NCBI GenBank assembly: GCA_951406725.2
Contig: OX597819.1
Location: forward strand, 120,156,001-120,220,000
Source: Octopus vulgaris
Lineage: Eukaryota
DNA length: 64,000 nt
Direction: 5' to 3'
Position 1 is the first letter of the stretch. Every line of letters begins with the position of its first letter. Under the pieces are notes generated by a model that had not been told where the DNA came from, did no database searches, and saw only the letters and a list, made by a program, of their open reading frames with translations. The position numbers and the translations under genes are program-made. Shown piece after piece: positions 17,215 through 64,000 of the stretch.

Positions 17215-18078
17215 CAGATGTTTTGGGTTTTTTTCATATTGGGTGATATTGAACCCAAAACTCTGATGATAATAAGGATAACTTTTAGTTTCGACACTCG
17301 CAACTGCCACATCTTAGCGATCTCAATTCTCAGGTCTCCATATTTATCAATTTTATTCTATTTCTTTCATGATGATATGTTGATCTCCTGACATTGCTAC
17401 TTCGATTATTAGGCACACTTGTTTGTCCCTCCTAAAGGTTACTATATCCTGCCTTCGGTGCTCTAACACTGTCTGTCTGGAAATCAAAGTCCCAGAGAAA
17501 TTTTGTTTCCCCCCTTTCGTCCATTGCCTTTTTCGGTGTATGTTGATACCAAGCATCAGTAACCTCACATCTATACTTACGGCATAGTGGCCAGTGGAGT
17601 TTTGGGCTACTTTGTCTTGTCTACGCTTGTACTCTTTCTGCGCAAGTCTTTCACAAACACTAACAATGTTAGTCACACTTTCGACCCTCTTCCCACACAT
17701 TCTGCAGACGTCCGACGCACTAGTGTGGTATATATTCTTTTTCACTGAATTAGTATTCAATGCCTGGTCCTGGGCCGCGATGATTAGGCTTTCAGTATTC
17801 TTTTTAGGTCACTCTTCTGGAGCCACCTCCATGATGCTCCCTGCACTTCTAATTTATTGATTTCCCGGTGGAACTCACCATGTAATTCTATACAGAGTAA
17901 GGTTTCTTTTCTCTCCTTGGCTGTTCTTGTTCGGAATTTATGAGCACTCGCAAGTCCATTTTTGTTAATTTCTTCTGCACTAGCAGCATACTGTAGCAGG
18001 TTTTACCAAATAATCTACCATGTTTCTTCTCTCACCGCACTCCCATACGTTAATATGCCCCGTTCACCCTTATCTCTC
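17215..18078 (-). mobile_element. R4/Dong-like LINE 3' part (zinc knuckle plus restriction-like endonuclease)
   Basis: IAAQDQALNTN, CRMCGKRVESVTNIVSVCERLAQKEYKRRQDKVA and LEHRRQDIV..CLIIEVAMSGD..KEIE, with frameshifts. Confidence 0.9.
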
Positions 18079-19934: not shown

Positions 19935-20626
19935 TGCAGACGGCTAGCTGGATGGATCACCCGAACTTTCAAAACAAGAGTAAAGGAGACATCGATGATC
20001 TTTGGCGGACATACGTTCTCAGCCGCTTAGACTATTGTTCCCAGCTATGGTCACCAAACAATAAAAAATCCACAGCGTAACTCGAAGCAATCCAACGAAG
20101 CTACACTATTAAAATCGTCTCGATGCAAGATGTCAGCTACTGGGAAAGACTGAAAGAATTAAAACTCTTCTCCCTTGAATGAAAGCGAGAGAGATATGCA
20201 GTGACACACATCAGAAAAATCCTAGAAGCTCTTGTACCAAACATTGGCATTGAAAGTTATTCAAACTGCAGAACGGGGTTTCACTGCATAGTACCAACGA
20301 TCCCAGCATCGCCATCAAAATACAGGATCAAATACTGCAACAACTTGGGCTTCAAGGGCCCACAGCTCTTTAATAGCCTTCCAAAATGCCGGAGTGACCC
20401 GCATGGTGTGGATGTAAGTGTCTTTAAGACAAATCTGGATCTCTTCCTGTTACAGGTTCCAGACGAGCCTACCTCACGGCGGGAAACACAGATGAGGGCA
20501 GCAGCATTAAAGTCCCGTATTTACCAAATGCCACATACTAGAGGAGGTTCCAAATAATGGTATAGCTCAGTCAATGGTGCTGCTCCAGTATGATCACAGC
20601 TTTGCAACTGAAACATTCAAACGAAA
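19935..20626 (+). mobile_element. CR1-group LINE 3' fragment with 3' UTR
   Basis: YVLSRLDYCSQLWSP, SYWERLKELKLFSLE, GPQLFNSLPK and FKTNLDLFLLQVPDEP; two in-frame stops. Confidence 0.9.
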
Positions 20627-25899: not shown

Positions 25900-27330
25900 A
25901 GTTTGTGGTGAAGATCAGGGGAGAAAAGGTGGTGAGATATTTTCGTGTTTAGTATCAGCAAAATTCTCTTCCATTCAAATGTTTTCGTCTTTTGAAGATT
26001 TGCGTAAGCAAGAACAGACTAATTCACAATATATAAGAGACTAATTCAGAATTTGATTCCTGGAAATGAGAATGGGATAAGATAAATTTGTTTCTCTTTT
26101 GCTATGGTTTTAAGACAGACAGTACTTTCCAATTATCGCTAAGCAGAACATTGTTTATTTTCATGTCCATTGACGTTCGGATAGTGGAGTATCACTTCAT
26201 CCAATTTCGGTTTTGAAAAGTTTGTCTGTGTTGTTTGTAACGTGTCTTGAATTGGTTTGCTGTAAACTATATATATGCAGGTCCTGTAGTTGGGGTAGTG
26301 TTCAATATTGCAATTGTGCTATAGACGATATTGCTTTTGAGAAAATGATTTTGAGAGGGTTGGATGAAATGTTTCCGAAGAGTCAATTATTACTGTTATG
26401 TGTAGTTTAAGTTCTCACAGATTTTGGTGGTTTTAACTGGATGCATTTTATTCCAAGTTCTTAGTTGGGGAATATGATAATTTTATGTTATATTTGTTCA
26501 TTTCCTCGTGATAAGTATGCTTTGAGGTGGTAGTGTTTTAGAGTTTCATGAAAACAAATTTTAATATTGTTATGGAGACTTGTATATCAAAGAGGAATTA
26601 AACCATATAATTTCCCCTCTTTCTATTCTTAAAGTTTTATATTCATTGTGAATGTATTATAGTCCATATACTGTACTTTTTCGTTTTATGGATTTTGCTA
26701 TATGGATTCATTAGAAGATAAAAAATGGAAGCCTTACAGATATGTTCTTTACTCGGGTTTATAATTATGCTTTTGCGATTGTCTATGTATATACTGTACT
26801 GGGTACTGGAAATTTTCGTTATCTTGCGTTATTTTTCTTTGTAAGAGTCTCAGACGTAGGAAGCATCAAGAAATTTGATTTTACGTGTGTTTTAAATGTG
26901 ATGGGAAAGCATTAGTTGTAATGTAGTTTTTTCTTAAATTTATCGGGTTCATGGGTTGTAGTTTCTTAGTTGAAGTAGACACTCATTCCTGTAGAGACTG
27001 CCTGAGATGAATGGAGACTTACTGTGTAAATTTGCTAATATTTAAATGCTGACGATTTCGCTTACCTCTACTGAGTCCTTTGATCCCATTTCCGTATTTG
27101 TAATATTGTCTTTATTTTAATAACCTCTATTGTGGTTATTGTGTTTGTCAACCTCAAAGCAGCCATGAGAATAGGTTTCGTTATTGACGCGTAATAATCT
27201 TTGACGTCAAACAGGAAGGAATGGTATGCATCTTTGTTAAACCAAACTATTACTTCACTTGTGTTAAGTCTTAGGGATGAAGTCAAATTTACTTTTAATT
27301 TTGGCCAGAATTTATCTACGATTTTTTTTT
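25900..27330 (-). mobile_element. Decayed Penelope-like element (RT plus GIY-YIG)
   Basis: NTSEVIVWF..FLFDVKDYYASITKPIL (PLE RT) and NIVYS..FKTRYKQHRQTFQNR (GIY-YIG region). Confidence 0.75.
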
Positions 27331-27991
27331 TTTTTTGATAATTTATTTGGAATATGGTAGATATTTTGGTTTCGGCGCAAGAGTTTATATAATTTATGTG
27401 TTCGAGATTGTGTTAAAGAAAAAAAACAGCTATAAGCAGATTCTTTTACATACCAGAGTTTCATTTGTCTTGCCCGATTATACAATCACATTTGGGCTTG
27501 TTCTATGTTATCAAATTTTCTGCTTCCACTCTTTCTGTCCGATGAGGGCTTAACTCACCGAAACTTCAAAGTCCCTGTCAATACACTTCTTGTTAAGAAA
27601 TAGTTAAAACAAAAACTTACAGTGTGTTTTCAGATGTTCCTCTGCTTGTATTGCCTGATGAACATTATCATACAGGGGCTTTCTTCTGCCACTAGAAATT
27701 CATGTGGAAATCTGTTAATATCCGGGCAAAAACAGCTGGAAATGATGCGCTGAAACAATTCTAGCGATATGTAGCAAAACATGTATATATGTGCGTATAT
27801 GTGCGCGCGCATGTGTGTGAGTGTATCTGTGTGTGTATATGCATGTATTTATGTGTGCATATATGTATGCATATATGTATATATACATGTATATATGTGT
27901 GTATACATATATATGTACATATATATATGCACACACTTACATACATATATAGACACACACACGCACATATCTAACTATATACACACATATA

Positions 27992-28429: not shown

Positions 28430-29138
28430 ACTTTCCTCTCTTTTGTCAAATCTTTCCATTCTGTCCTCCACTTCTGCCCTATTTCTCGACATTTCAGTCA
28501 GTAGTCATCACTCCACTCTCACCACCTCCATCCACTAAAAACACACAGACCCCCACTCATACATCAACTTCTCCTCCCCCACCTTAAACACACCAAGCTT
28601 TCCATCCCCTATTCCCTATTCCTCTGTCTATGCAGGCTCTGCAATGACGAGCATGAGTTTGAGACTCGGCCTCAACTCATGGCTCGCCACTTCATCCTAC
28701 GGGCATATCCCCTCACCAATATCCACACCGCCCTTGACAGAGCACATTCCGTGGACCTTGTTCTCTCCACTCACCCCCACCCCACCTGGTCCCCGCCGTC
28801 ACCCATCTCCCGTTTCCCCTCACCTACCACACCACCACCCTACCTCTCCAACCATTCTCCGATTTTTCCGGCACTCCAATCCGACCCTCCACTCCGAACA
28901 TCTCTAACTGACCCCTCCCCTCCTTCAAGCGGGCTCACAACCTACGAAACTTCTTGGTCCACAGCTTCTTCCCTAACCCAACCTCCCAACTCGGCTCGTT
29001 TCTCTGCTCCTGCCCACGCCGCTGCACTTGCCCTTACCTCTCCAACACCACCCTCCTCACTGGCACCCATCGTCGACCCTATCATATGACTAACTCCTTC
29101 ACCTTCACTTCTGGCAACGTCACCTACTGTATCTCTTG

Positions 29139-29169
<31 letters not shown>

Positions 29170-30075
29170 CCTCTCTCTCTCCTCTATACATCGGTCAAAC
29201 GGAACGCCGCTTGGCTGACTAGTTCACGGAACATCTCCGAGACATCCGACTCGGCAACAACACCCGGTCTCGTGCCATTTCCGCTCTACAGGTCATTCTT
29301 TACAACATCTGTCTGTGTTCGGATTGTTCTTGCACAGGGGTCATCCGGACTACCGTCTTCACCATGATGGGGGATTAATCTTCTCTCTTCGCTCCTTTGC
29401 GCTACATGGGCTCAACTCTCCTCCTCTCTCTTCTCTTGTCCTGACACCTAATTCCTCCCACCCACGTCTCCTCGCTTGCTCTGACACCTACTTCCCCGCT
29501 TCACTCCTACTCTACTTCTCTTTTCCACCCTCTCCCTTCATCGTCCCCCCTCCCTCGTTATCGCACCCCTACACATTTCAACCCACCATCCCTATACATC
29601 CCATCCAACCCAACCCCATCCCTTATACCCACCATTCCTTCCCCGCTCACGCTTCCCCCCACACTAGCACTGACCACTTCCCAGCATCCACACCATCATC
29701 CACACACCTACACATGCCCACACGCACATGTCAACGTGACCATCCCCCTTCCACACGCACATACACACTCTCACATACACATGCAAGCGCACCTTCATTT
29801 TGGGATCACCACTACTTTATTGTCTCCCTCTTCTTCCTAGCTCTCTTGTGTAACTCCTCTGACCGACATTCGCCATGATAGATTGCTCGCCACTAAACCT
29901 TTTTTAAATTTCCTCTCTCCTTTTATTTCTGTGTTCCTTTTTGTTGATGAGCGTAGGCTCGAAATATAAAAGACTTTCTTACTTCCCGAGCGTTAAACTA
30001 ACACATCTGTTTGTTGTTTACACATCCGTCTTCATTTTTTGTTTGTTTGTTTTTTTTTCGTAAATTCTCTCTATA
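28430..30075 (+). mobile_element. Decayed Penelope-like element 3' half with terminal hammerhead-like relic (~29937-29972)
   Basis: FLDISVS, KHTDPHSYI, SIPYSLFLCLCRLC, NVTYCISC and LYIGQTERRLAD.FTEHLRDI; then gagc-gtag-gctc-GAAA near the 3' end. Confidence 0.88.
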
Positions 30076-34309: not shown

Positions 34310-35310
34310 CTAGCATTATGACCCGACAACGCCGGGTCATACTGCCAGTGCATGTATATATGTGTATATATATATGTGTACATATTACATGTACTTCTAT
34401 ATATATATATACATCTACACATAAAATACAAAACACAAAGTTATATCTTGAAATCGCTAGTGATAACAATACTAAAAATATAATACAGACAGACTGAAAT
34501 TGTAGGCCTGTCTCTTGCAATTTCGATCAATTGCATCTTGTCCTCCCTCTTGTACAGAAGAGTGGCTATAATCCAGCCTACCTCTACTTCTGGGGGGATA
34601 TTTTTAATTTTTATCCGGGACGTCCTACGTCCCAGATATAAAGGTAAAAATAAAATATTTCCACTTTGCAAGGTTCGAGTCGAGTACTCCCTTGCACGTT
34701 CCGTTGACTTGAACTTTGCTTCTATTGTGGCGAATTTACCGCCTCTGGTTAGATACTTGATATCTTTCATAGTCGCACCAAGATACTTTTCAATGATGCT
34801 TTCCTCCAGGTGTTCAAATTTTTTTTTCTCTACATTGTATACTTTATAGACAATAGTCTTTTCTTTAATTTTATTTTTTATTTCGTTTGGTGGTGTTATC
34901 CTAGATTAAAGTGAAAGTATCTGACATAAAATAGAGAAATGTTTTTGTTTCACTTTTAACACGTTACACTGAAATAGTGGAGAAGATATGATATTGCTAT
35001 GGGTTCGCCCTAGGCAAGAAGTTGAAAATTTTTTTTTCCCATGAAACTACATGGACCCTAAGTAAGGCATGTGTAAAATTTGAATGAAATTGGTTGTGTA
35101 GTTCTCAGGTTTTAGGGAATCATAGTGAAGAAGATATGATATTGCTGTGGGTTCGCCCTAGGCAAAAAGTTAAAAACGTTTTTGCCGATGCCACTCCCCG
35201 GACCCTAAGTAAGGTATGTGTAAAATTTGAATGAAATTAGTCGTGTAGTTCTCAAGTTTTAGGGAAACACACAGACAGACAGACACATATTCTCAGTTTT
35301 ATATATATAT
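34310..35310 (-). mobile_element. Probable non-autonomous Helitron (or two adjacent Helitron fragments)
   Basis: RC 5' end TATATATAAAACTGAGAAT..GTCTGTCTG; ~150-bp internal tandem repeat (34976-35268); RC 3' end hairpin plus CTAG|T at 34310. Confidence 0.55.
34441..34900 (-). pseudogene. Frameshifted coding fragment, possibly LINE ORF1-like
   Basis: Complex, non-repetitive peptide KEKTIVYKVYN..LTRGGKFATIEAKF..YLGRRTSRIKIKNIPPEV resembles the RRM-like region of L1/Tx1 ORF1; inference. Confidence 0.45.
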
Positions 35311-35564: not shown

Positions 35565-35756
35565 TATATAGAAGGAGCTTCTACAGGACTAGAACTGTTT
35601 CATTCAAGAGAAATCTTCAGGAAGCTTCCTGAAGATTTCTCTTGAATGAAACAGTTCTAGTCCTGTAGAAGCTCCTTCTATATAATAAATTAATTTTACT
35701 CTGCTATGTATTGAGTACCTTATTTACTGTGGTTAACCCCGAATCAACCCGGGACC

Positions 35757-40249: not shown

Positions 40250-40430
40250 AAATTCGTAAACGTTTTACTCTTGTTAGCCCTAATCAAGGTGAAACATGGA
40301 TAACCAAAAGTTGAATATCCATTACGTAATGCTTTTCTTGTTTAAAATTTGTGGTGTGAAAACACTGCAGAGACGTATAAAATCATTTATGAATTATATA
40401 GCTACCGAAGCATTAAGGATGGTGAAATCT
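40250..40430 (+). mobile_element. Degenerate mariner transposase N-terminal fragment
   Basis: MDNQKLNIHYVMLFLFK resembles the mariner N-terminal HTH start. Confidence 0.5.
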
Positions 40431-40661
40431 CTGTTATTTTATTTCTCTTGTAGTCTACTCTTCGAAAATATATTATCCAACATATTGAATGAACCACTCT
40501 AGAATAATTTTGCTCCAATGTTTTAACTGTAATACTAATGAATGAAAAACCTGTTTTTCTACGTCTGTCTTTATACACTTTCAGTAAGGTATCTCTCCAA
40601 CTGGAATGAACATGTATCCTTTTCTTACACCTTATACATATGTCTCTGCAGAAAACCCAAC

Positions 40662-40872
40662 AATTTTTGAAAAATTTTTGGGTAAAATTTTCGGTGCTAA
40701 TTTTCGAAAAAGGTTTGTTGAAAATTTTTGGGTAAAATTTTCGGTGATAATTTTCGAAAAATTTTTGTTGAAAATTTTCTGTGAAAATTTTCTAAAAATT
40801 CTTGAGGAAAATTTTCGAAAAGTTTTTTGGTAAAATTTTTCGGTGATAATTTTCGAAAATTTTCGGTGCTAA
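40662..40872 (-). repeat. Orphan mini-array of the AAAATTTT satellite
   Basis: Same words (ggtgataattttcg, gttgaaaatttt, cttgaggaaaatttt) as the arrays beyond 51696. Confidence 0.92.
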
Positions 40873-41457: not shown

Positions 41458-42732
41458 TTTTGATACGGACATGCTTTATACGCGTACGTCTGTGTAGTCC
41501 TATTTTTGTGTGGACGAGCATATTCCTATGTGTGTATATATACGGTTCTTATATGCTTCAAATTTTGCCCCTTTCTCTTTTTTATCTCTTCCTTGCCTTT
41601 CACCCCTAAGAGTTCTTTTTAGTCACATAATCTTTCTTAATTAATAAATATCCCATTTTTTTGAGCCGGTTTCCCTTCATTGAAGCCAGATGGAAATTAC
41701 TCACACCTTAGTTTGCAGGAGCCACACCATCTATAAATTTGAGTATGCAGCTAGCGAAATGAAACCACACCGCTATCTACTTCGTTTAGGTAATCTGTGA
41801 ATAAGGGCCCACCACTGGCGCTTTACCAGTTCCACATTCCTCACCCTTAGTTTCATACTTAAATGTATGTTTCATTCCGAGGCCACCTTTATTTTTCATT
41901 TTTCACCACGGCATATAATTTCAAGCTGAACTATCGAATGTATCTGGTGAAAAAGACACCCGACACCCTTGAAGCATTTGTATGTAGACTTACTTTACTT
42001 GTACTTGTGGCGACATTCACCTCGGGCGGGTTGAGTCGGCTTCTTCTACTCATGGAAAAAGTTTCGTGGGAATATGTGGATTTCACAAGCGGTCCCCAAT
42101 AATCCCGCATGTGAAGACATCCTGTTTGCCGCAGATTGTCCGCAGACGCAGGGACAGAACGACCGAGAAGCCGCCGGTTGCCGAAGGTAGACACTCCGAG
42201 GATTTTTGGCCCTAATACCACTCGGTGTCAGACCAATCCGTCTTGGGTGACCCTACCAGGAACCGAAGTTCCCGACGGCATAGCTCTGACACTACCCGTT
42301 ACCAGCATCCCCACCACGGCGAGGAGGGGATGGACTTTGGGAACGTATGTAGAGTAATAGGTAACGCGTGTTTCTTTTGAACCAGTTCTAGTACTCGACT
42401 ATTTCTTCCATTCTTTTTATTTTACAGAGATAATTATCTCATAATAGCAAAATTTGTTGATTTCGAACTGAAGATGCATACTTTATCAGCTTTTCCGAAT
42501 TTCATTTCTATTTTCAATATAAGAACGAAGTGCATTTCATTCATTGATTAATAAACTCTGTTGATAAATTACCGATTCCTTGGCACTTTCTATCAAGCCT
42601 GGTCTATACTACAGACTAACCATCTAGAACTAACAAGAACAGGCTAACCATTCAGACAAATCATATAGAAGGGATTAATTCGAAGTTTCTGCTTGCTCGA
42701 CTTCACCAGACACGCTGAAAATTCGAATTCGG

Positions 42733-42739
<7 letters not shown>
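41458..42739 (-). mobile_element. 1.28-kb dispersed element with an RTE-5'-like structured motif, copy 1
   Basis: Collinear reverse complement of 60725-61969 plus 54146-54192. Confidence 0.75.
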
Positions 42740-51695: not shown

Positions 51696-54145
51696 AATAC
51701 TGCTTTACTACTACAGTCAAGATGCCTCGCCAGATTCTACTATCGACGTTTATAGACTTCAGCATATGGAGCATATTAGTTAATTTTTCGAAAGTTTTCA
51801 CAGAAAAATTATCAACAAAAATTTTTCAAAAATTATCACCGAAAATTTTTCCTGAAGAATTTTTCGAAAATTTTCAACGAAAATTTTTCGAAAATTATCA
51901 CTAAATATTTTGCCCAAAAATTTTTCGAAAATTATCACCGAAAATTATCACATAAAATTTTTCGGAAATTACCAAGGAAAATTTTGCTCAAAAATTTTTC
52001 GAAAATTTTCACCGAAAATTTTCACCGAAAATTTTTCGAAAATTATCACCGAAAATTTTCCTCAAACATTTTTCAAAAATTTTCACCGAAAATTTTCAAC
52101 AAAAGTTTTTCGAAATATTCCTCAAGAATTTTCACCGAAAATTTTCAACAAAAGTTTTTCGAAATATTCCTCAAGAATTTTTAGAAAATTTTCCCCGAGC
52201 TAAAAATAGATTTGTTATTCGAAAAATTTTCGGTGATAATTTTCGAAAAATTTTTCTTGAAAATTTTCGTTGAAAATTTTCGAAAACTTTTTGGGTAAAA
52301 TTTTCGGTGATAATTTTCGAAAAATATTTCGTGATAATTTTCGAAAAATTTTTGTTGAAAATTTTCGGTGAAAATTTTTGAAAAATTCTTGAGGAAAATT
52401 TTCGGTGATAATTTTCGAAAAATTTTTGTTGAAAATTTTTGTTCAAAATTTTCAGTCAAACTTTTCGAAAAATTCTTGAGGAAAAATTTTTGGTGATAAT
52501 TTTTGGTGAAAATTTTCGACAAATTAACTAATATGCTCCATATGCTGAAGTCTATAAACGTCGACAGCAGAATCTGGTGAGGCATCTTGACTGTAGTAGT
52601 AAAGCAGTATTCACTCTATATATACACAGAAAGCAGCCACCTAAAAATCTATTTTTAGCTATAACAAATCTATTTTTAGCTCCGGGAAAATATTCGAAAA
52701 ATTCTTGAGGAGTATTTTCGAAAAATTTTCGGTGAAAATTTTCGAAAAATTTTTTGGTAAAACTTTCGGTGATAATTTTTCAAAAATATTTGGTGATAAT
52801 TTTCGAAAAATTCTTGAGGAAAATTTTCGAAAAATTTTTCGAAAAATTTTCGGTGATAATTTTCCAAAAATTTTTATTAAAAATTTTCGGTGAAAATTTT
52901 TGAAAAATTTTTGAGGAAAATTTTCGGTGATAATATCCGAAAAATTCTTGAGGAAAATTGTCGAAAAATTTTTGTGTAAAAGTTTCGGTGATAATTTACG
53001 AAAAATTTTTGGTGATAATTTTCCAAAAATTTGTTGAAAATTTTCGGTGAAAATTTTCGAAAAATTCTTGAGGAAAAATTTTGGGTGTCGACGTTTATAG
53101 TCTTCAGCATATGGAGCATATTAGTTAAGTTTTCGAAAATTTTCACCAAAGATTATCACCAAAACTTTTTCAAAATTAGCACCCAAAATTTTTCAGCAAG
53201 AATTTTTCGAAAATTTTCACCGAAAATTTTCAACAAATTTTTCGAAAATTATCACCAAAAATTTTTCGAAAATTATCACCGAAAATTTTTCACAAAAATT
53301 TTTCGAAAATTTTCAACAAAAATTTTTCGAAAATTATCACCAAAACTTTTTGGAAAATTATCACCGAAAATTTTACCAAAAAATTTTTCGAAAATTTTCA
53401 ACAACAATTTTTCGAAAATTATCATCGAAAATTTTCAAAAAAAATATTTGAAAAATTTTCACCGAAGATTATCACCAAAAATTTCTCAAAAATTATCACC
53501 GTAAATTTCACCAAAAAATTTTTCGAAAATTTTCCTCAGGAATTTTTCGAAAATTTTCCCCGAAAATTATCACCAAAAATTTTTGGGAAATTATCACCGA
53601 AAATTTTCCTCAAGAATTTTTCGAAAATTTTCCACGAAAATTTTCAACAAAATTTTCCCCGAGCTAAAAATAGATTTGTTATGGCTAAAAATGGATTTTT
53701 AGGTGGCTGATTTCTGTGTATATATAGAGTGAATACTGCTTTACTACTACAGTCAAGATGCCTCACAGAAAATTTTCAACAAAGTTTTTCGAAAATTAGC
53801 ACCAAAAATTTTTGGAAAATTATCACCGAAAATTTTACTTAAAAATTTTTGGAAAATTTTTCGAAAATTTTCAACAAAAATTTTTCGAAAATTATCATCG
53901 AAAATTTTTACACAAAAATTTTTGGAAAATTATCACCGAAAATTTTCCTCAAAAATTTTTTTTTAATTTTCACGGAAAATTTTCAACAAAAATTTTTCGA
54001 AAATTTTCAACAAAAATAATTCGAAAATTTTCAACAGAAATTTTCGAAAATTATCACCGGAAATTTTCCTCAAAAATTTTTCAAAAATTTTCACCGAAAA
54101 TTTTCAACAAAAATTTTTCGAAAATTATCACCGAAAATTTTCCTC
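51696..54145. repeat. Complex satellite block 1 (11-13-bp AAAATTTT words, ~160-bp spacer, internal inversion 52219-53085)
   Basis: Direct inspection. Confidence 0.95.
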
Positions 54146-55224
54146 CACAATAGGACTACACAGACGTATGCGTAGAAAGCATATCCGTATAAAAAAGAAA
54201 GCATATCTGTACGAAACGATCGTCGGCATGAATCAAAATATTCTTATGTATTTTAATATCTTCTCTTCCCCATTTTAAACAAAATTGTTGAATTCTATTG
54301 TATTTTTTTCGATAAATTCACAGCACATCATATAAAAGTATTATTTTCATATTCGCAAATTTACGCCTGTAAACCACCAGCAAAATCTGAAGAATCAATA
54401 TTAGAAATCGCTTTTTGGAAACCTCCAAATTAAGTGTGTGTGTGTATGTATATACATGCTTGCATATATGTATGTATGTACGTATATATGTATGTATAAA
54501 GGCAGGTGATCAAACGTATATGTATAGTTACGGAAGCGTGTGTACATATAGAAGAAAAGGAAAAAATAAAACAGTAAAACCACACACCTACACAAATGCG
54601 AGGGTTTAAGGGTCGTTGTACGAACAGAAAGAAGACACATGAAACTATATTGGCAAAAAGATTTAGGAAAAAATGGGAAATGGTAATCTAACGCAGCTGT
54701 ATATCGTGTATGAAAGGATGATCGAGTGGGCTATTATAAGTGGGTGCATAAATAAGTACGAGGATTGCAGAATGGCATAGATTAGCAGGATATAACATGG
54801 TACTCTAGAGAAAGATAAAGTAACCGATGTAAGAATTGAACTGTCGAGAACGAAGCCTATTCGAGGAATATATGCTTAACCTGATCCCCACTTCGCTACA
54901 TAGTTAAGACAACTAGATGAAGTCTTGCCAAGGGAATTTTATTATTATACTAAATAATATGAAATAGATATAATAAGGAACTATATTCAATACATGTAGC
55001 AATTTGTACATAGGCTTATGTGTGTTTATAAATTTCATTCCTATTCACCAAATAAAGACATCGTCAGGATTTTTGTTCTACGATTCTTGCATTTCAAACT
55101 GGCTGAGCTCTTGATAGAGGAATTTCACAATGCTTACAACAGTTCTTCACGTTCTGACATTCTGACTTCATCTCATTTTCGCTTTGCATTTGCCATTGGC
55201 CTCGGAATCGATATAATCGACTAA

Positions 55225-55680
55225 AAAAAAATGCACTTGCTCGTTCCTAAGGTTAACCCTCCAGTTCGTGGCCAAAGCTTGGCCTTGCGCCACCAGTATA
55301 GGGTTCTCTTTCTCTATTTTTTTAGGGTTTCATTCATCAACCAACAACCCCTTTGTGGCTACATCGAATTGTTTGTGTTGTTCCTTCTTGCGTACTTCTT
55401 CTTTATGTCCTTTTTGTACTTCTTCCTTTGTTTTTTCCTTTTCTCATCTGCTCTCAATTACTCCATCGTTCTTTACTGTCTCCAGCATGGTTTCCTTACT
55501 TTGGGTAGGTATCATATTAAGAAATCGAGTTCTAAAGGCATGCAGTCTTTCACACTTATCAGTCTTCTTCCTCCATTTGCTCTCTTTATGTATCAGTGTC
55601 TGCACGTGGATGATGGGAATCATGCATCGTTATGAGCTTTCTTGACTTCCTGTCCATCACCTTTATCTTCTCCTCTGTCC
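55225..55680 (-). mobile_element. R4/Dong-like LINE fragment truncated at the satellite edge
   Basis: WTEEKIKVMDRKSRKLITMHDSHHPRADTD, KRANGGRRLISVKDC and ILVAQGQALATN. Confidence 0.85.
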
Positions 55681-58600
55681 ATAATTTTACCCATAATTTT
55701 ACCCAAAAATTTTTCGATAATCTTCACCCAAATTTATCACCAAAAATTTTTCGAAAATTATCACCGAAAATTTTACCAAAAAACTTTTCGAAAATATTCC
55801 TCAAGAATTTTTAGAAAGTTTTCACAGAAAATTTTCAACAAAAATTTTTCGAAAATTATCACCGAAAATTTTACCCAAAAATTTTCAACAAACCTTTTTC
55901 GAAAATTAGCACCGAAAATTTTACCGAAAAATTTTTCAAAAATTTTCACCGAAAATTATCACCAACAATTTTTCGAAAATTATCTACGAAAATTTCAACA
56001 AAAATTTTTCGAAAATTATCACCGAAAATTTTCCTCAAAATTTTTCAAAATTTTCACCGAAAATTTTCAACAAAATTTTTCGAAATTTTTCACCGAAAAT
56101 TATCACCAAAAATTATTTGAAAATTATCACCGAAACTTTTCCTCAACAATTTTTCGAAAATTTTCCACGAAAATTTTCAAAATAATTTTGCGAAAATTAT
56201 CACCGAAAATTTTCCTCAAACATTTTTCAAAAATTTTCACCGAAAATTTTCAACAAAAATTTTTCGATAATAAACACCAAAAATTTTACGAAAATATTCC
56301 TCAAGAATTTTTCGAAAATTTTCCGAGCTAAAAATAGATTTGTTATGGCTAAAAATCACGAAAATTTTTAGTGGCTGCTTTCGTGTATATAGAGTGAATA
56401 CTGCTTTACTACTACAGTCAAGATGCCTCGCCAGATTCTGCTGTCGACGTTTATAGACTTCAGCATATGGAGCATATTAGTTAATTTTTCGAAAGTTTTC
56501 ACAGAAAAATTATCAACAAAAATTTTTCAAAAATTATCAACGAAAATTTTTCCTGAAGAATTTTTCGAAAATTTTCACTGAAAATTTTACCAAAAAATTT
56601 TTCGAAAATTTTCAACAAAAATTTTTCGAAAATTATCACCGAAAATTAACATCAAAAATTTTTAAAAAATTATCACAGAAAATTTTACCAAAAAGTTTTT
56701 CGAAAATTTTCATCAAGAATTTTTCGAAAATTTTCAACAAAAATTTTTCGAAAATTATAACCGAAAATTTTGCCAAAAAATTTTTGAAAAATTTTCACCA
56801 AAAATTATTACCAAAAATTTTTCGAAAATAATCACCGAAAATTATCACCAAAAATTTTTCGAAAATTATCACCGAAAATTTTCCTCACGAATTTTTCGAA
56901 AATTTTCAACAAAAATTTTTCGAAAATTATCACTAAATATTTTGCCCAAAAATTTTTCGAAAATTATCACCGAAAATTATCACAAAATTTTTTGGAAATT
57001 ATCACCGAAAATTTTGCTCAAGAATTTTTCGAAAATTTTCACGGAAAATTTTCAACAAAAATATTGCGAAAATTATCACCGAAAATTTTCCTCAAACATT
57101 TTTCAAAACTTTTTCGAAATATTCCTCAAGAATTTTTCGAAAATTTTCCCCGAGCTAAAAATAGATTTGTTATTCGAAAAATTTTCAGTGATAATTTTCG
57201 AAAAATTTTTCTTGAAAATTTTCGTTGAAAATTTTCGAAAAATTTTTGGGTAAAATTTTCGGTGATAATTTTCAAAAAATATTTGGTGATAATTTTCGAA
57301 AAATTTTTGTTGAAAATTTTCGGTGAAAATTTTTGAAAAATTCTTGACGAAAATTTTCGGTGATAATTTTCGAAAAATTTTTGTTGAAAATTTTCGGTCA
57401 AAATTTTCGAAAAATTCTTGAGGAAAAATTTTGGGTGATAATTTTTGAACAATTTTTGCTGATAATTTTTGGTGAAAATTTTCGACAAATTAACTAATAT
57501 GCTCCATATGCTGAAGTCTATAAACGTCGACAGCAGAATCTGGTGAGGCATCTTGACTGTAGTAGTAAAGCAGTATTCACTCTATATATACACAGAAAGC
57601 AGCCACCTAAAAATCTATTTTTAGCTATAACAAATCTATTTTTAGCTCCGGGAAAATATTCGAAAAATTCTTGAGGAATATTTTCGAAAAATTTTCGGTG
57701 AAAATTTTCGAAAAATTTTTTGGTAAAACTTTCGGTGATAATTTTTCAAAAATTTTTGGTGATAATTTTCGAAAAATTTTTCGAAAAATTTTTGTTAAAA
57801 ATTTTCGGTGAAAATTTTTGAGGAAAATTTTCGGTGATAATATCCGTAAAATTCTTGAGGAAAATTGTTGAAAAATTTTTGTGTAAAAGTTTCGGTGATA
57901 ATTTTCGAAAAATTTGTTGAAAATTTTCGGTGAAAATTTTCGAAAAATTCTTGTGGAAAAATTTTGGGTGTCGACGTTTATAGACTTCAGCATATGGAGC
58001 ATATTAGTTAACTTTTCGAAAATTTTCACCAAAAATTATCACCAAAACTTTTTCACAAATTATCACCCAAAATTTTTCAGCAAGAATTTTTCGAAAATTT
58101 TCACCGAAAATTTTCAACAAATTTTTCGAAAATTATCACCAAAAATTTTTCGAAAATTATCACCGAAAATTTTTCACAAAAATTTTTCGAAAATTTTCAC
58201 CGAAAATTTTCAACAAAAATTTTTCGAAAATTATCACCAAAACTTTTTGGAAAATTATCACCGAAAATTTTAGCAAAAAATTTTTCGAAAATTTTCAACA
58301 ACAATTTTTCGAAAATTATCATCGAAAATTTTTTAAAAAAATATTTGAAAAATTTTCACCGAAAATTATCACCAAAAATTTTTAAAATTATCACCGAAAA
58401 TTTTACCAAAAAATTTTTCGAAAATTTTCCTCAGGAATTTTTCGAAAATTTTCCCGAAAATTATCACCAAAAATTTTTGGAAAATTATCACCGAAAATTT
58501 TCCTCAAGAATTTTTCGAAAATTTTCCACGAAAATTTTCAACAAAATTTTCCCCGAGCTAAAAATAGATTTGTTATGGCTAAAAATAGATTTTTAGGTGG

Positions 58601-59472
58601 CTGATTTCTGTGTATATATAGAGTGAATACTGCTTTACTACTACAGTCAAGATGCCTCACAGAAAATTTTCACCAAAAATTTTTCGAAAATTATCACCAA
58701 AAATTTTTGGAAAATTATCACCGAAAATTTTGCTTAAAAATTTTTCGAAAATTTTCCTCAAGAATTTTTCGAAAATTTTCACCGAAAATTTTCAAGAAAA
58801 ATTTTTCGAAAATATCACCGAAAATTTTACCCAAAAATTTTTCAAAAATTTTCACCGAAAATTTTTCGAAAATTATCACCGAAAATTTAACCCAAAAATT
58901 TTTCGAAAATTTTCCTTAAGAATTTTTCGAAAATTTTCACCGAAAATTTTCAACAAAAATTTTCGAAAATTATCACCGAAAATTTTACCCAAAAATTTTT
59001 CAAAAATTTTCACCGAAAATTTTCAACAAAAATTTTTCGTAAATTATCACCGAAAATTTTACACAAAAATTTTCACCAAAAATTATCACCAAAAATTTTT
59101 GAAAAATTATCACCGAAAATTTTACCAAAAAATTTTTCGAAAATTTTCAACAAAAATTTTTCGAAAATTATCACCGAAAATTTTACCCAAAAATTTTTCA
59201 AAAATTAGCACCGAAAATTATCACCAAAAATTTTGGAAATTTCTCACCGAAAATTTCTCCAAGAATTTTTCGAAAATTTTGAACAAAAATTTTTCGAAAA
59301 TTATCACCGAAAATTTTACCCAAAAATTTTCAATAAAAATTTTTCGAATATTATCACCGCAAATTTTCAACAAAAATTTTTCTAAAATTATCACCGAAAA
59401 TTTTACAAAAAATTTTTGGAAAATTATCACCGAGAATTTTTGGAAAATTATCACCGAAAATTTTACCAAAAA
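55681..59472. repeat. Complex satellite block 2 (inversion 57174-57968)
   Basis: Direct inspection. Confidence 0.95.
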
Positions 59473-60079
59473 ATATATGCGTGTATGTGTAGGAGTGTTG
59501 AATCTTAAAGGCCAGCTAAGGAGAATCATATGTGTTACCAACCATGAAGAACAAATCAACAATATAAAGAAATAAAATATCAATCTCTTTAAAACGGCAG
59601 CCACTTTAAGGTTACGAGAATCACCATCCCACTACATTTACGTATTCAAAGCACTTTGAATACGTATATAGGCTTTGTGACTACTACTAAATTAAGGTCA
59701 CGACAGAGAAATAGAATGTTCTTGAAGCCGAGGATTTTAAATTTACAGAGACAATATTTACATATCACCTGAGGAAATACAACTAGACCTCGTAATGCAG
59801 GGAAATAGTTTCTTAATCAAGTACCTGCACATCTGGAGAACTACGTTGCGTGCAAACAATTGTAGTGATTAAAAAATAAATGTTCAACCGTACTCTTCTT
59901 GTTGACTCCAATTTTTTCAATTATGTATTCACACATGAGAGATGCCCAAATGCAAACCTGGAAATACATATAATACTACTACTGGAAAGTAAAGTTTAAA
60001 TGTGAAAGTGGACGAGCGAGCTTTATACTGTATTCTACTATGTTCTTAACAGAATATACTATAATTATATATATACATA

Positions 60080-60210
60080 TATAAGACGGGCTTCTTACGG
60101 TTTACGTCAACCAGATATACTCACAAGTCTTTGGTCGGCTCGAGTCTATAGCAGAAGACACATGCCCAAGGTGTCACGCAATAGTACTGAACCCAGAACC
60201 TTGTGGTTGG
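60080..60210 (-). mobile_element. SINE type A head fragment
   Basis: gacgggcttctt..ctcacaag.ctttggtcggc..gaagacac.tgcccaaggtg. Confidence 0.8.
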
Positions 60211-60724
60211 GAATACATATATATTTAAATATATCTGTATATATACACGGCAAGATGTGTGTGTGTGTATACGTGATTGTAGTTCATGCACATCCACAAA
60301 TTATCACGCATGTCGCTCAAATTTTAGGAGGACATTTGCAAACATCCTATCTTGGTTTTGTCAACTTATTTTTTTCCCGAGGCACCCGCGGATAGCGGTA
60401 AAAATCTATTTTCAGCCATATCTTTTTCACGGCGTCTAACAAAAAGAAAAACAAGATAAAGAAAAGTGGAAGAAGAGAGGCAGAGAGTTTCACGGGAAAG
60501 ACAAAGTGAGAGAGGGAGAGAGAGTAAGTGACGATGTTCATAAAATATAAAATGTAAAATGTTTTTGTCTTTTCTTAAACACGAGATATAGTGTTCAAAT
60601 TCAGGATGTTTTTGAAAGACACTATATTTTATACTCATAGTATATATACTTTGTCACACAACAATTACAATATATTTATTTTAAATCATTTATTTATTCG
60701 TTCATCTTTCTCCCCCCCCCCCCC

Positions 60725-61969
60725 TATGAAACCGAACTCGAATTTTCAGTGTCTGGTGAAGGCAAGCAAGCAGAAACTTCGAATTAATCCCTTCGATATG
60801 GTTTGTCTGAATGGTTAGCCTGTTCTTGTTAGTTCTAGATGGTTAGTCTGTAGCATAGACCAGGCTTGTATAGAAAGCGCCGATGAATCGGTAATTTATC
60901 AACAGAGTTTATTAATCAATGCAAGAAATGCACTTCGTTCCTATATCGAAAATAGAAATGTAATTCGGAAAAGCTGGTAAACTATGTATCTTCCGTTCGA
61001 AATCAACAAATTTTGCAATTATGAGATAATTATCTCTGTAAAATAAAAAGAATGGAAGAAATAGTCGAGTACTAGAACTGGTTCAAAAGAAACACGCGTT
61101 ACCTATTACTCTACATACGTCTCCAAAGTCCATCCCCTCCTCACCGTGGGGAGGGGGACGCTGGTAACGGGTAGTGTCAGAGCTATGCCGTCGGGAACTT
61201 CGGTTCCTGGTAGGGCCACCCAAGGCCGATTGGTCTGATACCGAGTGGTATTAGGGCCACAATCCGGCAGACGGGACTCTGGTAAAAATCCTCGGAGTGT
61301 CTTCTTCGGCAACCGGCGGCTCCTCAGTCGTTGTGTCCCTGCGTCTGCGGACAATCTGCGGCAAACAGGATGTCTTCACATGCGGGATTATTGGGGACCG
61401 CTTGTGAAATCCACATAATCCCACGAAACTTCTTCCATGAGTAGAAGAAGCCGACTCAACCCGCCCGAGGTGAATGTCGCCACAAGTACAAGTAAAGTAA
61501 GTCTACATACGAATGCTTCAAGGCTGTCGGGTGTCTTTTTCACCAGATACATTCGATAGTTCAGCTTGAAATTATATGCCGTAGTGAAAAACGCAAAATA
61601 AAGGTGGCCTCGGAATGAGACATACATTTAAGAAACGAAATAAGGGTGAGGAAAATGGAACTGGTAAAGGGCCAGTGGTATTCCCTACTCACAGATTACC
61701 TAAACGAAATAGATAGTGGTGTGGTTTCATTTCGCTAGCAAATTTATGGTGTAGCTACTGCAAACTAAGGTGTGATTAACTTGCATCTGGCTTCAATGAA
61801 GGGAAACCGGCTCACAAAAATGGGATATTAATTAATTAAGAAAGATTATGTGATTAAAAAGAACTCTTAGGGGCGAAAGGCAAAGAAGAGTTAATAAGGG
61901 GTAAGGGGGCAAAATTTGAAGCATGTAAGAACCGTATATATACACACATATGTATATGCTTGTCCACAC
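60725..61969 (+). mobile_element. 1.28-kb dispersed element, copy 2, cut by satellite at 61969
   Basis: Reverse complement of about 41508-42739. Confidence 0.75.
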
Positions 61970-64000
61970 CGAAAATTTTCAACAAAAATTTTTTGAAAAT
62001 TATCACCGAATATTTTCCTCAAAAATTTTTAAATTTTGACGGAAAATTTTCAAGAAAAATTTTTGGAAAATTTTCAACAAAAATAATTCGAAAATTTTCA
62101 ACAAAAATTTTTCGAAAATTATCACCGAAAATTTTCCTCAAAAATTTTTCAAGAATTTTCACCGAAAATTTTAAACAAAAATTTTTCAAAATTTTTCACC
62201 GAAAATTATCACCAAAAATTTTTTGAAAATTATCACCGAAACTTTTCCTCAACAATTTTTCGAAAATTTTCCACGAAAATTTTCAAAAAAATTTTGCGAA
62301 AATTATCACCGAAAATTTTCCTCAAACATTTTTCAAAAATTTTCACCGAAAATTATCAACAAAAATTTTTCGATAATTAACACCAAAAATTTTTCGAAAA
62401 TATTCCTCAAGAATTTTTCGAAAATTTTCCCCGAGCTAAAAATAGATTTGTTATGGCTAAAAATAGATTTTTAGGTGGCTGCTTTCTGTGTATATAGAGT
62501 GAATACTGCTTTACTACTACAGTCAAGATGCCTCGCCAGATTCTGCTGTCGACGTTTATAGACTTCAGCATATGGAGCATATTAGTTAATTTTTCGAAAG
62601 TTTTCACAGAAAAATTATCAACAAAAATTTTTCAAAAATTATCAACGAAAATTTTTCCTGAAGAATTTTTCGAAAATTTTCACTGAAAATTTTACCAAAA
62701 AATTTTTCGAAAATTTTCAACAAAAATTTTTCGAAAATTATCACCGAAAATTAACATCAAAAATTTTTTTAAAAATTATCACAGAAAATTTTACCAAAAA
62801 GTTTTTCGAAAATTTTCATCAAGAATTTTTCGAAAATTTTCAACAAAAATTTTCGAAAATTATAACCGAAAATTTTGCCAAAAAATTTTTGAAAAATTTT
62901 CACCAAAAATTATTACCAAAAATTTTTCGAAAATAATCACCGAAAATTATCACCAAAAATTTTTCGAAAATTATCACCGAAAATTTTCCTCACGAATTTT
63001 TCGAAAATTTTCAACAAAAATTTTTCGAAAATTATCACTAAATATTTTGCCCAAAAATTTTTCGAAAATTATCACCGAAAATTATCACAAAATTTTTTGG
63101 AAATTATCACCGAAAATTTTGCTCAAGAATTTTTCGAAAATTTTCACGGAAAATTTTCAACAAAAATATTGCGAAAATTATCACCGAAAATTTTCCTCAA
63201 ACATTTTTCAAAAGTTTTTCGAAATATTCCTCAAGAATTTTTCGAAAATTTTCCCGAGCTAAAAATAGATTTGTTATTCGAAAAATTTTCAGTGATAATT
63301 TTCGAAAAATTTTTCTTGAAAATTTTCGTTGAAAATTTTCGAAAAATTTTTGGGTAAAATTTTCGGTGATAATTTTCAAAAAATATTTGGTGATAATTTT
63401 CGAAAAATTTTTGTTGAAAATTTTCGGTGAAAATTTTTGAAAAATTCTTGACGAAAATTTTCGGTGATAATTTTCGAAAAATTTTTGTTGAAAATTTTCG
63501 GTCAAAATTTTCGAAAAATTCTTGAGGAAAAATTTTGGGTGATAATTTTTGAACAATTTTTGCTGATAATTTTTGGTGAAAATTTTCGACAAATTAACTA
63601 ATATGCTCCATATGCTGAAGTCTATAAACGTCGACAGCAGAATCTGGTGAGGCATCTTGACTGTAGTAGTAAAGCAGTATTCACTCTATATATACACAGA
63701 AAGCAGCCACCTAAAAATCTATTTTTAGCTATAACAAATCTATTTTTAGCTCCGGGAAAATATTCGAAAAATTCTTGAGGAATATTTTCGAAAAATTTTC
63801 GGTGAAAATTTTCGAAAAATTTTTGGTAAAACTTTCGGTGATAATTTTTCAAAAATTTTTGGTGATAATTTTCGAAAAATTTTTCGAAAAATTTTTGTTA
63901 AAAATTTTCGGTGAAAATTTTGAGGAAAATTTTCGGTGATAATATCCATAAAATTTTGAGGAAAATTGTTGAAAAATTTTTGTGTAAAAGTTTCGGTGAT
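61970..64000. repeat. Complex satellite block 3 (inversion from 63278; runs off the window)
   Basis: 62431-64000 shares rare variants with 56323-57900. Confidence 0.95.

What the first reader, a model, noticed from the sequence alone, without database searches (positions are those of the whole stretch)
42208..42335. Multi-stem structured RNA motif of RTE-5' type in a non-coding 1.28-kb element: ribozyme candidate
Seen (minus strand here; plus strand at 61128-61258): a 5' hairpin (catcccc/ggggatg here; cccctcc/ggagggg in copy 2), then stem gtgtcaga/tctgacac (G-U-compatible change in copy 2), internal loop GCUAUG/AUUGG, stem ccgtc/gacgg (one mismatch in copy 2), and a junction with gggaac-UUCG-gttcct (cUUCGg tetraloop), GGUA, ggg-N3-ccc and AA. 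From memory, not a search: BovB and fish RTE 5' ends have GAGCYAUGCCG..UAGGGYCACCCAAG..GGUC with different but still pairing flanking stems. Known: some non-LTR 5' ends are self-cleaving (HDV-like), but I could not fit this motif to the HDV, hammerhead or twister folds. Inference: a deeply conserved, possibly uncharacterised RNA domain for 5' processing, capping or translation initiation.
Basis: partly seen in the sequence, partly recalled or inferred. Interest (0 to 1): 0.75.

Follow-up and report, generated by a model that had tools for sequence, protein, structure and literature searches.

The report
RTE ribozyme with conserved P4 junction

Summary
The structure is real, but it is not a free-standing new ribozyme. 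It lies at the 5' end of a ~360-385-bp internally deleted RTE-type LINE (target-site duplications, CAAGTA tail, about 1,200 first-look candidates in the genome). The '1.28-kb element' is a local triplication of one insertion. Intact family members fold as an HDV-like double pseudoknot (P1, P2, P3, P1.1, U20/G25, C75-N-R-A78), and copies start at the first P1 nucleotide. The copy at the given coordinates has lost 25 nt holding the catalytic C and the P2 partner, which is why HDV did not fit. In five families from metagenome records the fold covaries (22 of 47 pairs change on both sides; 92% paired versus 33-51% in slid controls). The P4 domain is 65/65 identical between two own subfamilies whose cores and coding regions differ, and persists across LINEs with 30-45% endonuclease identity. 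HDV-like RTE ribozymes are known; this P4 module matched no Rfam family and I found no description, but key papers were not held. Earlier scan notes report other RTE HDV variants (L3 hairpin) on other DNA. Cleavage is untested.

The parts
41988..42345 (-). Copy 1: internally deleted (bipartite) RTE-type LINE derivative, family A; 5' UTR joined to the last ~10 codons, the stop and the CAAGTA-type tail
42346..42352 (-). 5' target-site duplication (7 nt; up to 9 with microhomology)
   Evidence: sequence
41981..41987 (-). 3' target-site duplication
   Evidence: sequence
42339..42345 (-). P1 5' strand; the family's G1 is missing in this copy; predicted cut site just 5' of G1
42326..42333 (-). P2 5' strand; its partner is deleted in this copy
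42313..42325 (-). P3 (2 Watson-Crick pairs plus U-U) and 7-nt L3 with U20- and G25-equivalents and the P1.1 5' strand
42299..42312 (-). P1 3' strand (42305-42312), P1.1 3' strand and J1.1/4
42208..42298 (-).
42207..42208 (-). Point of a 25-nt deletion that removed the P4 3' base strand, J4/2 with the catalytic C, and the P2 3' strand
42050..42207 (-). Rest of the LINE 5' UTR, ending just before the ORF start
61118..61502 (+). Copy 2 of the same insertion (TSDs 61111-61117 and 61503-61509)
61118..61282 (+). Complete HDV-like fold in copy 2: catalytic-C equivalent 61268, A78 equivalent 61271, P2 3' strand 61273-61282; 3 extra nt at about 61151-61153 between P3 and P1, G1 missing
41500..42737 (-). 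Local duplication unit (the '1.28-kb element'): old ~70%-identity dispersed repeat flanks with the insertion; three copies within 30 kb (second at about 60727-61970, third beyond the window)

Best explanation
The motif is the enlarged P4 arm of an HDV-like double-pseudoknot fold at the exact 5' end of an RTE-type LINE family and its short two-ended derivatives, and intact family members likely self-cleave just before their first nucleotide to release the element from read-through transcripts, while the copy at 42.2 kb is predicted to be dead because it has lost the catalytic C and half of P2. Shown: boundaries, LINE parent, pairings, covariation, start at P1. Inferred: cleavage, giving an uncapped 5'-OH RNA that the LINE protein reverse-transcribes to the end. 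The three-way junction in P4 is most likely a recognition module on that uncapped RNA. My split for its role, all inferred: docking site for the element's own protein 0.35, translation start of the single ORF 0.3, folding or stability aid 0.2, DNA promoter or other 0.15.
For: Element: dispersed copies with TSDs and CAAGTA tails; 1217 and 1223 first-look candidates. Long copies share the same 5' end and run into APE endonuclease (PF03372 E 4e-12) and RT (PF00078 E 1e-34), ending in the same tail after about 3.3 kb; the closest homologue is one 1035-aa APE-RT protein at 70%. Fold: on an unfitted MAFFT alignment of 9 hand-picked metagenome loci from 5 families, 91.9% of cells pair and 22 of 47 pairs change on both sides, including P2 8 of 9 and P1.1 AU 4 / GC 4; slid controls give 33-51%. 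RNAalifold, given no structure, predicts the three-way junction with 7 of 20 pairs compensatory. A model built without own-genome sequence finds only the two window copies (E 7e-14 and 3e-10) and all 15 family-H loci given, end to end. Own families A and B: 93.8% paired, with compensatory changes in P1, the P4 base and the side hairpin. U20, G25, C75 and A78 equivalents are present in 20 of 20 hand-picked A/B copies, and C75 and A78 in 9 of 9 non-own loci. The 5' end tracks P1: in a sample picked by a downstream query, 15 of 27 dispersed A copies start at G1, 12 are shorter and none share sequence further upstream; family B, with a 7-bp P1, starts one nt later (11 of 29 with the full strand). 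P4 inner domain: 65 of 65 nt identical between the A and B majorities versus about 14 differences in the first 48 nt and 205 of 319 invariant columns in the coding region; APE identity between carriers is 30%, 37% and 45%.
Against: No cleavage data. Family A departs from the norm. P1 is 8 bp, against 'typically 6 or 7' (PMC3774820). The bottom P3 pair is U-U in 20 of 20. P2 is only 4 bp plus 3 bp and shows no two-sided change within this genome. J4/2 has 5 nt. No Rfam HDV-type model matched any copy or relative. Covariation between A and B alone is weak (5 pairs; 141 of 500 shuffles reach it), and so is that within family H (11 pairs; 37 of 500). The metagenome set was fished with a pattern from the P4 core, so its P4 sequence conservation is circular; only the A/B comparison (B found through the coding region) is not, and it could reflect a swap between subfamilies. 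Three near-full-length LINE contigs picked by protein alone had no match (0 of 10 loci searched; their 5' ends may be missing). MFE z-scores of the P4 domain are unremarkable in 5 of 6 sequences. RTE-clade assignment rests on architecture, not on a tree.
Confidence: 0.8

Rival explanations
1. The HDV-like fold is real, but in this lineage (families A and B) it no longer cleaves. It serves as a structured 5' leader or an internal promoter, and the sharp 5' end is a transcription start.
For: 8-bp P1, U-U in P3 and weak P2 in family A. L1Tc's 77-nt ribozyme is also a promoter (PMC3185411 discussion). An extra 5' G in family A could be a copied cap (recalled for L1, no call).
Against: The extra G in A is matched by an extra C in the P1 3' strand, and B has neither, which fits pairing rather than cap copying. 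C75 and A78 are kept while the two bases between them differ between A and B. The U-U pair is shared with family H. R2 ribozymes tolerate P2 and P3 mismatches.
Confidence: 0.13
2. The three-way junction is itself a separate, new catalytic RNA (capping, branching or ligating).
For: Unpaired junction and loop bases are nearly invariant; no Rfam match.
Against: In every family examined it sits inside P4 of a complete HDV-like core, which already explains the 5' end. No second junction or processing site was seen in the copies.
Confidence: 0.04
3. A chance fold in a GC-rich repeat, or the head of a tRNA-derived SINE.
For: MFE z-scores are modest.
Against: Cross-family covariation; the same 5' end on full-length LINE copies; no tRNA in 4 of 4 loci scanned.
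Confidence: 0.03

Closest known systems
HDV-like ribozymes at the 5' ends of RTE-clade LINEs (Ruminski et al. 2011, not held; seen only as cited in PMC5786205 section 23, PMC6765202 passages and PMC13725137 passages)
   Same: Same host clade, same position, same double pseudoknot; proposed release from co-transcripts and help in translation initiation.
   Different: Here P4 carries a sequence-conserved three-way junction shared by at least eight families. I could not check whether the 2011 paper or Webb et al. 2009 already drew such a P4.
drz-Agam-2-1 (PMC4908430, first quarter and passages read)
   Same: Large HDV-like ribozyme with a peripheral domain.
   Different: Its studied domain lies in J1/2 (P1.2) with a 12-bp P2; here J1/2 is short and the domain lies in P4.
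L1Tc/NARTc ribozyme (PMC3185411, passages and first part of the discussion) and R2 ribozymes (PMC3774820, sections 12, 15, 16, 18, 19 and passages)
   Same: Cut at +1 of the element; kept in non-autonomous derivatives; 3-bp P3 and 1-2-bp P1.1.
   Different: Other clades. In R2, P4 is described as highly variable or absent, whereas here it is the most conserved part.
Bipartite ORF-less non-autonomous RTE LINEs such as RTESINE1/2, WALLSI3 and Bov-A (PMC5786205, passages and section 23)
   Same: 5' UTR joined to the 3' end by internal deletion; retains the true 5' end.
   Different: A different family; whether Repbase or Dfam already lists it was not testable.
Twister variants on Perere-3, an RTE-clade LINE (PMC8501958, passages)
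   Same: RTE-clade LINE with a 5' ribozyme.
   Different: Different ribozyme class; no twister match here.

Membership tests
HDV-like ribozyme | Nested double pseudoknot P1, P2, P3, P1.1, P4 in the right order | tested here: met
   for the families. Not met by the copy at 42.2 kb (P2 3' strand deleted).
HDV-like ribozyme | P1 of about 6-7 bp starting at the cut site | tested here: inconclusive
   7 nt in families B to H by eye; 8 bp in family A. The tool counts for P1 in A5 and A7 are off register in some rows.
HDV-like ribozyme | 3-bp P3 with U20 and G25 in L3 | tested here: inconclusive
   U20 and G25 in 20 of 20 A/B copies. P3 is fully paired in families C and D and in E when read in register, but the bottom pair is U-U in A, B and H.
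HDV-like ribozyme | P1.1 of 1-2 bp | tested here: met
   CA/UG in A and B (95% of cells); AU 4 / GC 4 in non-own loci.
HDV-like ribozyme | Catalytic C75 and A78 in J4/2 | tested here: met
   C kept in 26 of 27 dispersed A copies, 9 of 9 non-own loci and 13 of 15 H copies; present in window copy 2, deleted in copy 1.
HDV-like ribozyme | Element 5' end at the first P1 nucleotide | tested here: met
   DNA depth falls from over 10,000 to under 300 upstream of 61110.
HDV-like ribozyme | Mg-dependent self-cleavage giving 5'-OH and 2',3'-cyclic phosphate | not testable with these tools
   Needs a bench assay.
Rfam HDV-type families | Score above gathering threshold | tested here: not met
   No ribozyme family among listed matches ([150 of 350 rows shown], 5, 79, 80).
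RTE-clade LINE | Single APE-RT ORF, about 3.3 kb, microsatellite tail, TSDs | tested here: met
   the ORF is broken in the copies read. Clade description from PMC8501958 passages and recall.
RTE-clade LINE | RT phylogeny places it in the clade | not tested
   No reference set available; no tree was built.
Bipartite non-autonomous LINE | 5' and 3' ends of the LINE only, no small-RNA head | tested here: met
Hammerhead, twister, pistol, hatchet | Rfam model match | tested here: not met

The most novel reading that the evidence does not exclude
A widespread subclass of RTE LINEs carries, inside P4 of its HDV-like ribozyme, an undescribed three-way-junction RNA module under tighter constraint than the catalytic core. 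It would be the handle by which the uncapped, self-cleaved RNA recruits the retrotransposon protein or the ribosome, and would explain why RTE LINEs spawn two-ended derivatives that keep the whole 5' end.
Probability: 0.45. Interest if true: 0.65.

Novelty: new variant of a known kind. Interest (0 to 1): 0.45.

Why it matters
HDV-like ribozymes on RTE LINEs are known, and P4 is usually treated as variable and dispensable. A P4 module kept across LINEs with only 30-45% endonuclease identity gives a small, sharply defined target for two open questions: how uncapped LINE RNA is translated, and how 5' ends are recognised during insertion. It also explains why Rfam models miss these ribozymes. RTE 5' UTRs are being tuned empirically for gene insertion (PMC13708176, passages), so knowing which part does what would be useful. 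The copy at the given coordinates is itself a dead relic.

Tried and rejected
Rfam scans of the window (only simple-repeat miRNA-type matches among the 150 of 350 rows shown), of 41900-42500, of 8 loci and of L154 found no ribozyme family. The PDB sequence search of the endonuclease found nothing. The pattern scan of viral contigs gave 1 hit (L183), which the model does not match, so I treat it as chance. The protein scan of viral contigs gave 0 of 86 stretches. The protein scan of prokaryote genome contigs gave 12 loci; 10 were searched with the model and 0 matched; L209 and L211 were read by eye at their 5' ends with no motif. Expression: no RNA holder listed. Four runs guessed to be RNA hold family-like contigs, which shows neither transcription nor ends. 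A back-joint across P4 (61265 to 61155) also stands in DNA runs, so it is not evidence for a circle. The 61268 to 61166 joint was not listed in DNA, but the thresholds differed (30 versus 10), so no verdict. A T excess just before G1 is explained by target sites and was rejected as evidence. L168 and L176 (family C) show no LINE ORF downstream and are probably short derivatives. Paper searches that found no description of the P4 module: (0 papers). Ruminski 2011 and Webb 2009 were not held; one search fetched an unrelated paper. No supplements were read, and those two papers' figures and supplements may already show this P4. Earlier-findings look-ups by sequence and by P4 words returned nothing.

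Full report
1. Observation. The described stems are present on the minus strand at 42208-42335 and on the plus strand at 61128-61258. The inner 76 nt fold as described (z -3.0; copy 2 z -1.4). The core pattern occurs twice in the window and never in 100 shuffles. The copies are 91% identical over about 1.25 kb, and copy 1 lacks 25 nt that copy 2 has at 61259-61283. No Rfam family matches the region.

2. The element. Searching the 2.8-Gb own genome with either copy gives about 1,200 first-look candidates, 40 scored each time. Earlier scan notes call this genome an octopus; I did not test that. Dispersed copies match only about 360-400 bp, with target-site duplications and a CAAGTA-type tail. 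In the window the element is 42345-41988 (minus) and 61118-61502, with a 7-nt TSD. The flanks have three near-identical copies within 30 kb and otherwise about 70% matches to an older repeat. The '1.28-kb element' is thus one insertion duplicated locally. Longer copies keep more of the middle. Full-length decayed copies begin at the same 5' end, encode an APE endonuclease and a reverse transcriptase, and end in the same last codons and tail after about 3.3 kb. Their nearest database relative is a single 1035-aa APE-RT protein (70% over the RT). This is the build of an RTE-clade LINE (PMC8501958 passages; clade inferred from architecture, no tree). The short form is a bipartite non-autonomous LINE of the kind described in PMC5786205 (section 23).

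3. The fold. Intact family A copies read, 5' to 3': P1 strand, short J1/2, P2 strand, P3, a 7-nt L3 with U at position 1 and G at position 6, P3', P1', a UG that pairs with CA in L3 (P1.1), a short joiner, a 99-nt P4 domain, then G-G-C-A-G-A and the P2 partner. This matches the HDV-like layout and the roles of C75, A78 and U20-G25 in PMC4908430 and PMC13635239 (passages). In a sample chosen by a downstream query, 26 of 27 dispersed copies keep the C and 25 of 27 keep the P2 partner. The first search, made with the deleted copy, selected 27 copies that all had deletions there, so that set is biased. Copy 1 lacks the catalytic C and is predicted inactive. Copy 2 is complete but has 3 extra nt between P3 and P1 and lacks G1, so it is probably impaired too.

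4. Comparative evidence. (a) Subfamily B, found through the coding region and expanded, has a different 7-bp P1, a different L3 and C-C-A-A in J4/2. On 10 A and 10 B hand-picked copies (of 57 dispersed copies held), 93.8% of cells pair, with two-sided changes at the top of P1, the P4 base and the side hairpin. The tool undercounts P1 because of a misplaced gap; by eye B pairs 7 of 7. The number of covarying pairs alone is not above shuffles (141 of 500). (b) A pattern from the P4 core hit 31 metagenome stretches: 23 of one family (C) and 8 of four others. I aligned 9 of the 31: 4 from C, plus every other locus with an intact 5' end except one duplicate. On this unfitted alignment, 91.9% of cells pair and 22 of 47 pairs change on both sides, against a shuffle mean of 9.7 and 33-51% paired when slid. 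P2 and P1.1 lie outside the search pattern and covary best (8 of 9 pairs; AU 4 / GC 4). The P1 count there is unreliable, as 4 of 9 rows are off register; by eye P1 pairs 6-7 of 7 in each family. L173 and L182 have an APE ORF directly downstream (Pfam weak, E 1e-4 for L173 and none for L182). (c) A model built from those 9 finds exactly the two window copies and, end to end, 15 of 15 loci given from a third, older own family H (410 candidates). H fits the same fold at 84% with little internal covariation. (d) RNAalifold on 10 sequences predicts the junction unaided.

5. The 5' end tracks P1. Family A has an 8-bp P1, and 15 of 27 unbiased copies start at its G1; 12 are shorter and none extend further. 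Family B has a 7-bp P1 and starts one nt later (11 of 29 show the full strand; this sample was biased to long matches). About 16 of 20 distinct family C stretches start at their P1 with unrelated flanks. HDV-like ribozymes cut at the first nucleotide of P1 (PMC4908430). The extra G of A is matched by an extra C in P1', which argues against a copied cap.

6. The P4 module. Between the A and B majorities the inner 65 nt are identical, while the first 48 nt differ at about 14 places and the coding region has 205 of 319 invariant columns. Carriers of the module have endonucleases only 30%, 37% and 45% identical. Helix pairs and the hairpin loop vary, whereas the internal loop, the junction strands and the 3-bp hairpin hardly do. 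For the metagenome families this is partly circular, because the pattern demanded those bases. R2 P4 regions are described as highly variable or absent (PMC3774820). Not every related LINE shows it: 0 of 10 protein-selected contigs matched, only 3 of them near full length and possibly cut at the 5' end.

7. Mechanism. Shown: element, parent LINE, fold, covariation, start site. Inferred: a read-through transcript folds, cuts before nucleotide 1, and the uncapped RNA is copied by the LINE protein from the CAAGTA tail to the 5' end, which gives the sharp boundary. This is the role proposed for RTE ribozymes in PMC6765202 and PMC5786205 (passages citing Ruminski 2011). The P4 junction most likely binds a protein: the element's own (as the R2 5' pseudoknot does, PMC6765202 passage) or translation machinery (PMC13725137 passage). 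Against activity in family A: the 8-bp P1, a U-U pair at the base of P3 (shared with B and H), a short P2, and short P3 helices being mutation-sensitive (PMC9901934 passage).

8. Novelty. HDV-like ribozymes at RTE 5' ends are known, and the scan has noted other RTE variants with an L3 hairpin on other DNA (unchecked notes). A conserved three-way junction in P4 was not found in Rfam, in eight paper searches or in earlier notes. The two papers most likely to show it were not held, and no supplements were read. Papers seen: passages or named sections of PMC6765202, PMC3774820, PMC3185411, PMC4758252, PMC13708176, PMC5786205, PMC4908430, PMC8501958, PMC13635239, PMC9901934 and PMC13725137; abstract only of PMC6007223. 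Verdict: new variant of a known kind; interest 0.45.

Noticed in passing
L004-L030: Copies selected for likeness to the deleted window copy all carry deletions around J4/2 and the P2 3' strand, with many different end points; this may be a hotspot where reverse transcriptase skips across the pseudoknot.
   Followed up: partly
L026, L034, L046, L052: Several copies carry tandem restarts of the first 15-60 nt at their 5' end, as if the reverse transcriptase jumped back onto the 5' end of the RNA.
   Followed up: no
L184-L203: A third, older own family (410 candidates) has a canonical core and is about 80% identical at the 5' end to a metagenome LINE (L173), closer to it than to family A; horizontal transfer or an old shared lineage is possible.
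   Followed up: partly
L110 and L118: Family B LINE copies with an inverted 3' end joined to the start of the ORF, i.e. inversion-deletion forms.
   Followed up: no
window 61265/61155: A joint that returns from the 3' base of P4 to the P1 3' strand stands in both RNA-guessed and DNA runs: a genomic copy with the P4 region duplicated in tandem.
   Followed up: partly
window 35585-35664: Near-perfect 80-nt palindrome (alignment; the miRNA label is below threshold).
   Followed up: no
window about 51700-64000 and 40400-40800: Large AT-rich, palindrome-like satellite array that surrounds copy 2.
   Followed up: no
window 28500-29500, 17353-17808, 20183-20557, 27068-27412, 34441-34905: Other decayed retroelement protein fragments seen in the ORF list; not scanned.
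   Followed up: no
L209-L214, L216, L217, L219, L220: Eukaryote-type LINE ORFs sit in prokaryote genome assemblies, most likely host contamination.
   Followed up: no
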